Shown one piece after another: positions 43,829 through 63,297 of a DNA stretch of 64,000 nucleotides. The notes beneath the pieces are model-generated. The model saw only the letters and a list, made by a program, of their open reading frames with translations. It was not told the origin of the DNA and did no database searches. A program made the position numbers and the translations under genes. Numbering within the stretch: the stretch's first letter is position 1; the number at the start of each line of letters is the position of its first letter. Source of the DNA: Octopus vulgaris (lineage: Eukaryota); assembly GCA_951406725.2 (NCBI GenBank), contig OX597817.1:77624001-77688000 (forward strand), written 5' to 3'.

Positions 43829-43907
<79 letters not shown>

Positions 43908-43915
43908 GTATATAT

Positions 43916-44132
43916 ATATGCTTTATTTAAAGCAGCAGAAAATTCAACAAGTTTCACGTTGCCGTTCATCGGACAGTTTTTGCTAGCAAAAACTGTCCGA
44001 TGAACGGCAACGTGAACCTCAGAGTAACAGGTTTTGTTGAATTTTCTGCTGCTTTAAATAAAGCATATTACTCTACCACTGGTATTTGAGAACTCTTTTT
44101 TCCACCTTGTTTCACATTTATGTGTTTACTCC

Positions 44133-44135
<3 letters not shown>
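43916..44135. mobile_element. Fold-back hammerhead element family H3, copy 1
   Basis: Palindrome centred on GCTAGC at 43982-43987; homologous to 63069-63297; flanked by (TA)n. Confidence 0.8.
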
Positions 44136-44193
<58 letters not shown>

Positions 44194-44662
44194 TTATTAT
44201 ATAGAAGGAGCTTCTACAGGACTAGTACTGTTTCATTCAAGAGAAATCTTCAGGAAGCTATTTAACAAGAATTGTATTAGCATTTATACATTTAGAGGAG
44301 TGGTGGTGGGGGACTTTTTGGGGGTAGGCATAGCGCAAAATATCATACTTGGGGAGTGGTCAAGGTAATAAAAAAATAAAATAAAATAATAAAAAAATAA
44401 AAAAATAAAAAAAAAAAAAAAAAAAAAAAAAATAAAAAAATAAAAGGATAAAATAAAAGAATAAAAAATATAAAAAATATAAAAAATATAAAAAATATAT
44501 ATAAAAAAATATATAAAAAATATATATATAAAATATATATATAAAATATATATATAAAAAAAAGGGGGGGATAGAGTTATAGGTAAATAAGGAGATTCTC
44601 ACTTATACCTATACACACATGTATACGTATCTACACACACATACGCACATACACATATATCT

Positions 44663-44713
<51 letters not shown>

Positions 44714-45362
44714 CCTACACATACACACATACATACATACAAATATACATATACATATATATATATACAATCCAATACAGGCCCATTCCCTAATTTTAAT
44801 TTTATTATCTTCATTTATTACTTTTGTTATCTTTGATCGCTAGGGCTAAGAATCCTGGCAATAGCTGCTTGTCCGTTTGTCTGTCTACTAGAAGGCAAGT
44901 ACTCATTCCCGCACGCACACTCATTAGCACGTACATTCACCCATTCGTACACTCATACACATACACGTACGCACGCGTTATATTCATACATACAAACATC
45001 TACATACGTTCACGTATATACATTTATATATTTTTTTATATATATTTTTTATATTTTTTATATTTTTTATATTTTTTATTCTTTTTATTTTATCCTTTTA
45101 TTTTTTTATTTTTATTTTTTTATTTTTTTTTTATTTTATTTTATTTTTTTATTTTTTTATTTTATTATTTTATTTTATTTTTTTATTACCTTGACCACTC
45201 CCCCAAGTATGATATTTTGCGCTATGCCTACCCCCAAAAAGTCCCCCACCACCACTCCTCTAAATGTATAAATGCTAATACAATTCTTGTTAAATAGCTT
45301 CCTGAAGATTTCTCTTGAATGAAACAGTACTAGTCCTGTAGAAGCTCCTTCTATATAATAAA
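44194..45362. repeat. About 330-bp inverted repeat pair (44194-44520 / 45023-45362), each arm carrying a hammerhead
   Basis: Arms are reverse complements apart from variation in the A/T-rich tract; spacer about 500 bp. Confidence 0.85.
45296..45346 (+). ncRNA. Type I hammerhead ribozyme motif (mirror copy at 44209-44259, minus strand)
   Basis: AGCTTC-CTGAAGA-T-TTC(TCTT)GAA-T-GAAA-CAG(TACTAGTC)CTG-TA^GAAGCT. Confidence 0.75.
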
Positions 45363-45441
45363 TTAATTTTACTCTGCTATGTATTGAGTACCTTACTTAC
45401 TGTGGTTAACCCCGTATCAACCCGGGAACTACATATATATG

Positions 45442-63068: not shown

Positions 63069-63295
63069 CTTTATTTTAAGCAGCAGAAAATTCAACAAAA
63101 TCTGTAACTCTGAGTTTCTCGTTGCCGTTCATCAGACAGTTTTTGCTAGAAAAAACTGTCTGATGAACGGCAACGAGAAACTCAGAGTAACAGATTTTGT
63201 TGAATTTTCTGCTGCTTAAAATAAAGCATATTACTCTACCACTGGTATTTGAGTACTCTTTTTCCACCTTGTTTCACATTTATGTGTTTACTCCG

Positions 63296-63297
<2 letters not shown>
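63069..63297. mobile_element. Fold-back hammerhead element family H3, copy 2
   Basis: Palindrome at 63069-63226; flanked by (TA)n. Confidence 0.8.
63156..63193 (+). ncRNA. Minimal hammerhead ribozyme motif (mirror copy at 63102-63139, minus strand)
   Basis: CTGT-CTGATGA-A-CG(GCAA)CG-A-GAAA-CTC(A)GAG-TA^ACAG. Confidence 0.7.

What the first reader, a model, noticed from the sequence alone, without database searches (positions are those of the whole stretch)
43916..44135. H3 arms co-vary within each copy at three diagnostic sites
Both arms of this copy read CCGATGA, CAACGTG and GCTTTAAATAAAG, while both arms of 63069-63297 read CTGATGA, CAACGAG and GCTTAAAATAAAG. The two copies nevertheless fold at the same GCTAG(C) apex. 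Either one template strand is copied twice at each insertion with a fixed turning point, or the arms undergo conversion. Either transcription direction would yield a ribozyme motif plus its antisense, so hairpin and ribozyme folds compete.
Basis: partly seen in the sequence, partly recalled or inferred. Interest (0 to 1): 0.75.

Follow-up and report, generated by a model that had tools for sequence, protein, structure and literature searches.

The report
Retrotransposon stub written twice per insertion
This hairpin is the shortest common footprint of a young Penelope-like jumping gene that pastes its end in twice, head to head; across hundreds of copies the two halves match each other far better than they match other copies, likely because both were copied from one source RNA at the moment of insertion, a step still unexplained for this class of elements.

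Summary
Observation confirmed. Both hairpins are 5'-truncated, head-to-head insertions of a 3,365-bp Hydra-clade Penelope-like retroelement (711-aa ORF): one arm ends at the pLTR end, the other carries a 71-bp tail, in (TA)n. Genome-wide, 401 of 420 apex copies agree between arms at one diagnostic site (about 200 disagreements expected, 19 seen). In kilobase-long pairs arms differ by 0.19% against 1.11% between insertions and share private variants. Conversion is not supported: post-insertion CpG decay hits one arm 20 times, both once. The turning point is a hotspot, not fixed: about 500 arms stop exactly 3 nt before CTAG, their partners never reach further (31 of 31), and the apex comes in three of four possible forms (the fourth 1 of 464). 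Best reading: two cDNAs from one RNA join at its 5' end; fold-back of one cDNA is the main rival. The ribozyme cannot compete with the hairpin. The scan already noted this two-armed layout for other families of this genome; the haplotype, apex and 5'-stop evidence is what this adds.

The parts
43920..43984 (-). Copy A, tail-less arm: pLTR end of the Hydra-clade element (element positions about 0 to 81, C of CTAG = 0), old haplotype, with a 15-nt deletion that removes helix III and the cleavage site
43982..43987 (.). Copy A apex GCTAGC (perfect G..C class), junction of the two arms
43985..44063 (+). Copy A, tailed arm, pLTR part ending at AATAAAG (element position 80)
43993..44030 (+). Degenerate type I hammerhead motif of copy A (helix I CTGT/ACAG, core CCGATGA ... 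GAAC, predicted cut after GTA at 44026); core differs from CUGAUGA/GAAA at two places
   Evidence: sequence; layout matches Hydra-2_Amil row in File S2 of PMC8557442
44064..44134 (+). One-sided 71-bp tail of copy A (element positions 81-151), which in the parent leads into the 5' UTR and ORF
43872..43919 (.). (TA)n target tract left of copy A; (TA)n continues at 44135-44185
63069..63147 (-). Copy B, tail-less arm, young haplotype; one private change (GTT at the cleavage triplet)
63145..63150 (.). Copy B apex GCTAGA (asymmetric G..A class; the A is not in the parent)
63148..63226 (+). Copy B, tailed arm, pLTR part with intact minimal type I hammerhead motif (CTGATGA at 63160, GAAA, CTCAGAG, GTA)
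63227..63296 (+). One-sided tail of copy B, followed by (TA)n

Best explanation
The hairpin is a head-to-head pair of 5'-truncated ends of a young Hydra-clade Penelope-like retrotransposon, and its two arms were likely written at the same insertion as two separate cDNAs from one source RNA. Shown: the parent is a 3,365-bp unit with a 711-aa RT plus C-terminal GIY-YIG-type ORF; insertions sit in (TA)n; one arm ends at position 80 and the other at 151; arms share their source's variants; many arms stop exactly at position -3. Inferred: the element's protein nicks both strands of a (TA)n tract and primes reverse transcription at two sites of the sense RNA (80 and 151), as shown in vitro for the anole Poseidon element. 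When priming happens in the pLTR next to the RNA's 5' end, which would be the A at -3 (initiator-like CC-A-TTCT, also the outer base pair of hammerhead helix I), both cDNAs run off there and end in ...TTTTTGCTAGAAT-3'. These ends are self-complementary at CTAG with two flanking G.A mismatches; annealing, trimming and fill-in would give GCTAGC, GCTAGA or TCTAGC but not TCTAGA, as observed. The arms are born identical and then decay independently. The hairpin is a by-product; its ribozyme motifs are predicted to be locked in the stem.
For: Parent and clade; motifs of PMC8557442 section 11 and by-eye match to its Hydra alignments; Atlas neighbours carry GIY-YIG, RVT_1 and HTH_animal. One tail per insertion: 48 of 50 long or mixed pairs, 76 of 81 position-sampled hairpins, none with two. 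Neither arm contains the other: the tail-less arm reaches further 5' in 23 of 40 unequal pairs, the tailed arm in 17. Same source: concordance at sites 18, 25, 30, 48, 72 of 67/69, 65/68, 55/61, 62/63, 58/61; rare variants on both arms 19 against 1.4 by permutation; 35 young long pairs 0.19% within against 1.11% between, 45 private variants shared against 55 on one arm. Hard stop: 752 arms lack the parent C at -4, 54 of 81 read are true ends at -3 (my count), against 21 at the -7 control; all 31 partners of such arms end at -3 or downstream. Apex classes 30/24/22 of 76, fourth class 1 of 464, and the parent reads T-CTAG-C, which I predicted before finding it (note). In vitro precedent for both-strand priming at two sites bounding the tail: PMC11167929.
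Against: No RNA evidence: no listed run is on record as RNA and contigs cannot show starts, so the 5' end at -3 is inferred from DNA junctions only. A non-templated G (cap mark) precedes -3 in only 2 of 19 arms joined straight to (TA)n; no conserved TATA box between old and young upstream sequences. All 9 fetched arms long enough to reach the upstream -3 site read through it, so long arms need a different template (tandem read-through or circle), not resolved here. Apex proportions differ between haplotype groups (chi-square p = 0.007, 62 copies), which simple independent rejoining does not predict. The partner is the nearest arm in only 21 of 35 long pairs. A few insertions are mixed: L222 at three common sites of 28 pairs shown, single common-site mismatches in L228, L236, L237, L163 and L165 among the 19 mixed hairpins. 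One molecule and two sister transcripts of one locus cannot be told apart from DNA. Long pairs were picked partly because both strands hit a pattern; 50 of 60 long loci gave a clean pair.
Confidence: 0.66

Rival explanations
1. One cDNA is made, its 3' end folds back on itself at a short self-complementary site and copies itself; the endonuclease then resolves the hairpin, leaving the tail on either arm. The template is still used once per insertion and the arms are born identical.
For: Predicts the same co-variation and the same three apex classes. Some long pairs turn symmetrically at internal palindromes (L225 at -1098, L233 at -2572). Self-priming was proposed for palindromic PLE junctions in PMC3846280, Discussion; 'EN-mediated resolution' of the tail in PMC8557442.
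Against: Needs the tail removed after the fact from the template arm in 23 of 40 pairs. Cannot give arms of different haplotype (L222; L165). Insertions with both arms ending at -3 around a filler (L282, L346) and blunt junctions without overlap (L130, L135, L230) fit two free ends better. The only in vitro PLE system extends both strands from two RNA sites.
Confidence: 0.2
2. The arms come from two unrelated RNAs and agree only because one subfamily is active at a time.
For: Occasional mixed insertions exist.
Against: Several haplotypes coexist among young pairs at 97-99% identity and arms still match; private variants are shared; partners of -3 arms are never long, 31 of 31, though most arms in the genome extend upstream.
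Confidence: 0.05
3. Arms are homogenised after insertion by gene conversion or template switching in the palindrome.
For: Perfect short palindromes can undergo such events (general knowledge, recalled); L165 shares a private variant yet differs in one segment.
Against: CpG decay in 47 old copies: 20 on one arm, 1 on both, 0.48 expected if independent. Asymmetric apices are commoner in old copies (28 of 36) than young (11 of 26). Mismatches grow with age. Co-variation is as strong in arms kilobases apart. 15 of 19 mixed copies are single C-to-T changes on an old background.
Confidence: 0.04
4. The whole hairpin is a non-autonomous element (SINE- or MITE-like) copied as a unit from a few master hairpins, so arms and apex are inherited together.
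For: Many near-identical 229-bp copies; apex class is partly associated with haplotype (p = 0.007); a two-tailed hairpin exists that could feed either orientation (L009).
Against: All three apex classes occur in both young and old haplotypes; the hairpins are one end of a continuum of junctions of the parent; no arm asymmetry other than the apex recurs as a lineage in the copies read.
Confidence: 0.05

Closest known systems
Hydra clade of C-terminal EN+ Penelope-like elements, e.g. Hydra-1_Obim, Hydra-2_Amil, Hydra-1_Ajap (Craig et al. 2021, PMC8557442; passages and supplement search results seen)
   Same: RWK, DKT, CxCX5C, CxxC and CxH motifs, single RT-EN ORF, (TA)n target, type I hammerhead; the Hydra-2_Amil ribozyme row has the same helix I, core and helix III layout.
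   Different: A different family from Hydra-1_Obim (other ribozyme sequence; listed as 2,507 bp with no pLTR). This one is 3,365 bp, has clear pLTR and tail, thousands of arms, and intact ORFs in 7 of the 9 fetched loci holding the start codon.
Inverted 5'-truncated pLTR insertions with a one-sided tail and palindromic junctions (Penelope of D. virilis; Adineta Pen2a, PMC3846280, passages and Discussion seen)
   Same: Head-to-head arms, tail on one arm, junctions favouring palindromes.
   Different: Tail is 71 bp, not 30-40. That paper reads the junctions as self-priming on an antisense template; here arm containment, the -3 stop and apex classes point to two sense-templated cDNAs.
Poseidon of the green anole, in vitro (Frangieh et al. 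2024, PMC11167929; parts 1-2 of 4 read)
   Same: Two internal RT start sites bounding the tail, both target strands nicked and extended, AT-rich targets, uncleaved RNA as substrate.
   Different: Different clade; that work did not address how the two products are joined or whether they share one RNA.
[quoted passage not shown]
   Same: Minimal core, short near-palindromic helix III suited to dimer folding, motifs on opposite strands close together.
   Different: Not a tandem retrozyme: no head-to-tail repeats of the short unit in the window copies; helix II lacks the usual G10.1-C11.1 pair.
LINE-1 twin priming (recalled, no call)
   Same: Both target strands prime on one RNA and give an inversion joined by microhomology.
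   Different: In L1 the two cDNAs cover different stretches; here they cover the same stretch, so the arms are duplicates.

Membership tests
EN+ Penelope-like elements | Single ORF with RT and GIY-YIG-type endonuclease | tested here: met
   711-aa ORF with DIIDFYP, YRDD and C-terminal GVVY...YTG; Atlas neighbours with GIY-YIG and RVT_1 at 0.96-0.97. Pfam and PDB sequence searches gave no hit.
EN+ Penelope-like elements | pLTR in partial tandems, inverted 5'-truncated copy, one-sided tail | tested here: met
   Partial tandems in L127, L128, L222, L239, L241, L244; 48 of 50 pairs with one tail.
EN+ Penelope-like elements | Hammerhead motif in the pLTR | tested here: met
   All listed pairs of the type I fold are standard pairs in the parent; no Rfam hammerhead hit, as usual for minimal forms.
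Hydra clade | RWK, DKT for DKG, CxCX5C linker, CxxC and CxH, no N-terminal EN, (TA)n target | tested here: met
   RWK at 37, DKT at 113, no DKG, CNCKNESSC at 562, CRLC at 667, CRH at 695; definitions; targets.
Hydra clade | Placement inside the Hydra clade on an RT tree | not tested
   Published Hydra proteins were only compared by eye; no tree was built, and the wide protein search did not run.
Self-cleaving hammerhead ribozyme | Cleavage after GUA | not testable with these tools
   No excess of arms starting at the predicted cut: 94 pattern hits, mostly point changes or near-palindromic joins among 29 read.
Non-LTR retrozyme | Non-coding head-to-tail repeats with a hammerhead in each unit | tested here: not met
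   Window copies are single inverted pairs derived from a coding element.
SINE/MITE-like hairpin element | Fixed unit copied whole, with inherited internal asymmetries | tested here: not met
   Continuum of junctions; three apex classes in young and old haplotypes, though proportions differ (p = 0.007).

The most novel reading that the evidence does not exclude
Penelope-like elements insert by copying the same stretch of one RNA molecule twice, from two start sites and both target strands, and join the two cDNA 3' ends through a mismatch-containing duplex; the hairpin stubs record the RNA's exact 5' end (the A three bases before CTAG), while arms longer than a unit come from a second, circular or multimeric template. 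That would replace antisense self-priming as the explanation of PLE inverted repeats and give a ready assay.
Probability: 0.45. Interest if true: 0.7.

Novelty: new member of a known kind. Interest (0 to 1): 0.5.

Why it matters
How PLEs form their tandem and inverted structures is named as unresolved in PMC8557442 and left open in PMC11167929. This family has thousands of arms, several co-existing source haplotypes and intact ORFs, so the genome itself gives sharp constraints: same source for both arms, one tail per insertion, a single-base 5' stop, three allowed apex classes. These make the question directly testable with a purified Hydra protein and barcoded RNAs. The hairpin itself is an ordinary by-product, not a ribozyme switch, and the layout is known.

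Tried and rejected
Rfam: nothing at gathering score in the window; only sub-threshold miRNA-type hairpin matches at copy B, rejected. Pfam and PDB sequence searches of the ORF: no hit. RNA editing of the template: no A>G excess among shared private variants (7 A>G, 7 T>C of 45). Ribozyme-cleaved template: no peak of arms at +44. TTCTAG as a splice acceptor: no GT..AG joint among contigs of four runs, and arms stop at -3 not +4; not supported, not excluded. Expression: no RNA holder listed; contigs of four guessed-RNA runs cover the whole unit and the pLTR end far more deeply, which cannot be read as expression. Contigs of four further runs under three organism codes carry the same variant sites, uninformative on mechanism. 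Circle versus tandem template: repeated units within one arm differ at 0-2 sites in five loci and more in L222, not decisive. Literature searches listed no paper with an arm-haplotype test or a twin-priming model for PLE inversions; the library lacks most subscription papers, so this does not show it is unpublished. Supplements of the bioRxiv retrozyme preprint could not be seen. Rows dropped: 13 of 146 hairpins failed the alignment filter; 15 of 50 pairs were too short, too old or lacked comparators for the distance test.

Full report
Observation. The two hairpins are at 43920-44134 (copy A) and 63069-63296 (copy B). Each has a left arm on the minus strand, a CTAG apex, a right arm, and a 71-bp tail on the right only, between (TA)n tracts. 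Copy A's left arm has lost 15 nt; its right arm reads GAAC for the GAAA core. The genome holds 464 exact matches to the apex pattern. At the CYGA site 247 are T/T, 154 C/C and 19 mixed, against about 200 mixed if arms paired at random. Of the 19, 15 are old-haplotype copies with a C-to-T change on one arm, 2 are young copies with one T-to-C, and 2 (L163, L165) differ at several sites; none joins a fully old to a fully young arm.

The parent. Asking for arms whose upstream is not palindromic gave 3,295 hits, most reading TTCCATT-CTAG-C. Fetched loci show a 3,365-bp unit in partial tandems with a 711-aa ORF starting 219 nt after the apex C. It has RWK, DKT, YRDD, CxCX5C, a GIY-YIG-type motif, CxxC and CxH, the diagnostic set of the Hydra clade in PMC8557442 section 11 (passages seen), and follows that paper's Hydra alignments by eye (supplement search results). 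Pfam and PDB sequence searches missed it; the Atlas placed it with GIY-YIG/RVT_1/HTH_animal clusters. Seven of nine fetched loci holding the start codon have an open frame, so the family is likely recently active. The host looks like an octopus from genome size and earlier notes of this scan; I did not test that. I number the element from the C of CTAG (0): the pLTR ends at 80 (AATAAAG), the tail at 151.

Anatomy of insertions. Of 60 longer loci, 50 gave a clean head-to-head pair; 48 have exactly one tailed and one tail-less arm. These loci were chosen partly for hits on both strands, so they do not give the share of insertions that are paired; single arms exist. Junctions lie anywhere along the element, with 0-18 nt of overlap or short fillers, and some long pairs turn symmetrically at internal palindromes. 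The tail-less arm reaches further 5' in 23 of 40 unequal pairs, so neither arm is simply contained in the other. The window's hairpins are the shortest common class of this series.

Why arms co-vary. In 69 position-sampled hairpins five polymorphic sites agree in 90-98% of copies against 32-72% expected; rare variants lie on both arms 19 times in 133 hairpins against 1.4 by permutation within haplotype. In 35 young long pairs the arms differ by a median 0.19% against 1.11% between insertions, 45 private variants are shared and 55 are on one arm, though the partner is the nearest arm in only 21 of 35. Several haplotypes coexist among these young pairs and one of 28 shown (L222) is mixed. Subfamily succession alone therefore does not explain it. 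Conversion does not either: CpG decay falls on one arm 20 times and on both once (0.48 expected), old copies keep asymmetric apices more often than young ones (28 of 36 against 11 of 26), and arm-to-arm mismatches grow with age. No A-to-G editing signal was found. The arms are best read as born identical from one source and decaying separately.

The turning point. 752 arms have ATTCTAGC without the parent's C at -4. Of 81 read, I count 54 true ends at exactly -3 (31 joined to a partner, 23 to flank); the rest continue upstream with a variant base (hand-corrected for 9 rows). That extrapolates to about 500, against 21 hits at the -7 control. All 31 partners end at -3 or further downstream, although most arms in the genome extend upstream, so both arms of such insertions came from the same short-ended template class. 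Position -3 is the A of an initiator-like CC-A-TTCT (consensus recalled) and also the outer pair of the predicted helix I. D. virilis Penelope has a TATA-less start within its pLTR (PMC2377424, passages seen). Against a plain start site: a cap-type G appears in only 2 of 19 direct joins to (TA)n, and all 9 arms long enough to meet the upstream -3 read through it. Two cDNAs ending in TTTTTGCTAGAAT can pair through CTAG with a G.A mismatch on each side; trimming or replication then allows G..C, G..A and T..C apices but not T..A. Observed: 30, 24 and 22 of 76 and 1 of 464. All three classes occur in young and old haplotypes, but their proportions differ (p = 0.007), which I cannot explain.

Mechanism. 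Shown: parent, target, two end sites, one tail per pair, shared source, the -3 stop, the apex classes. Inferred: both target strands are nicked and primed at sites 80 and 151 of the sense RNA, as the anole Poseidon protein does in vitro (PMC11167929); the second RT would displace the first cDNA (PLE RTs lack RNase H, recalled); the free ends are joined by microhomology. The main rival is fold-back of one cDNA with later endonuclease trimming of a tail, close to the self-priming proposal of PMC3846280; it gives the same co-variation and apex classes but needs after-the-fact tail loss in over half the pairs and cannot give mixed arms. One molecule cannot be told from two sister transcripts.

Ribozyme. 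The parent pLTR can be drawn as a minimal type I hammerhead with the layout of Hydra-2_Amil, of the kind described in PMC4209133 as weak and dimer-dependent. In the hairpin copies the full stem is predicted at -102 to -135 kcal/mol against -8.2 for the ribozyme fold, and the antisense arm comes first in either direction. The old subfamily spread with a CCGAUGA core, and arms do not pile up at the predicted cut, in line with cleavage being dispensable for insertion. No switch is indicated.

Novelty. The element is a new family of a described clade, and inverted truncated ends with a one-sided tail are the known PLE footprint. Earlier notes of this scan describe the same layout, and a both-strand model, for other families in this genome; none matched this sequence. 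What this adds is a quantitative test of where the two arms come from and why they turn where they do. My searches listed no such test, within a library that lacks most subscription papers. Interest 0.5.

Noticed in passing
window 44192-44517 (-) and 45023-45363 (+), one-sided extension to about 45410: A second head-to-head pair of another family with a CTGAAGA...GAAA hammerhead motif, in the same (TA)n tract as copy A; arms 95% alike. The same two families abut in L027.
   Followed up: partly
window 36810 (-) and 9205 (-): Minimal hammerhead motifs of a third family (CTGATGA or CCGACGA, AGAGCTCCGCTC, GAAAC), again with a CUGA/CCGA core variant.
   Followed up: no
L025 about 1780-2060; L056 about 700-960: Hairpins of related older families with the same tail but other apex sequences, so the short-stub class recurs across families.
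   Followed up: no
L225 and L233: Long pairs whose two arms turn at the same base, at 17-nt and 12-nt internal palindromes of the parent.
   Followed up: partly
L009/L024 and L245: Rare insertions with a tail on both arms.
   Followed up: no
L127, L128, L222, L239, L241, L244, L256: Arms longer than one 3,365-bp unit, on both sides in L128 and L239; repeated units nearly identical except in L222. Fits a circular or multimeric template.
   Followed up: partly
element position 30 (window 44013, 63176): Four-state site (A, T, G, C) at the base of hammerhead helix II, still concordant between arms in 55 of 61 copies; why it varies so much is unexplained.
   Followed up: partly
L140, L223, L227, L245, L249: Junctions with extra internal segments in either orientation, suggesting template jumps during joining.
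   Followed up: no
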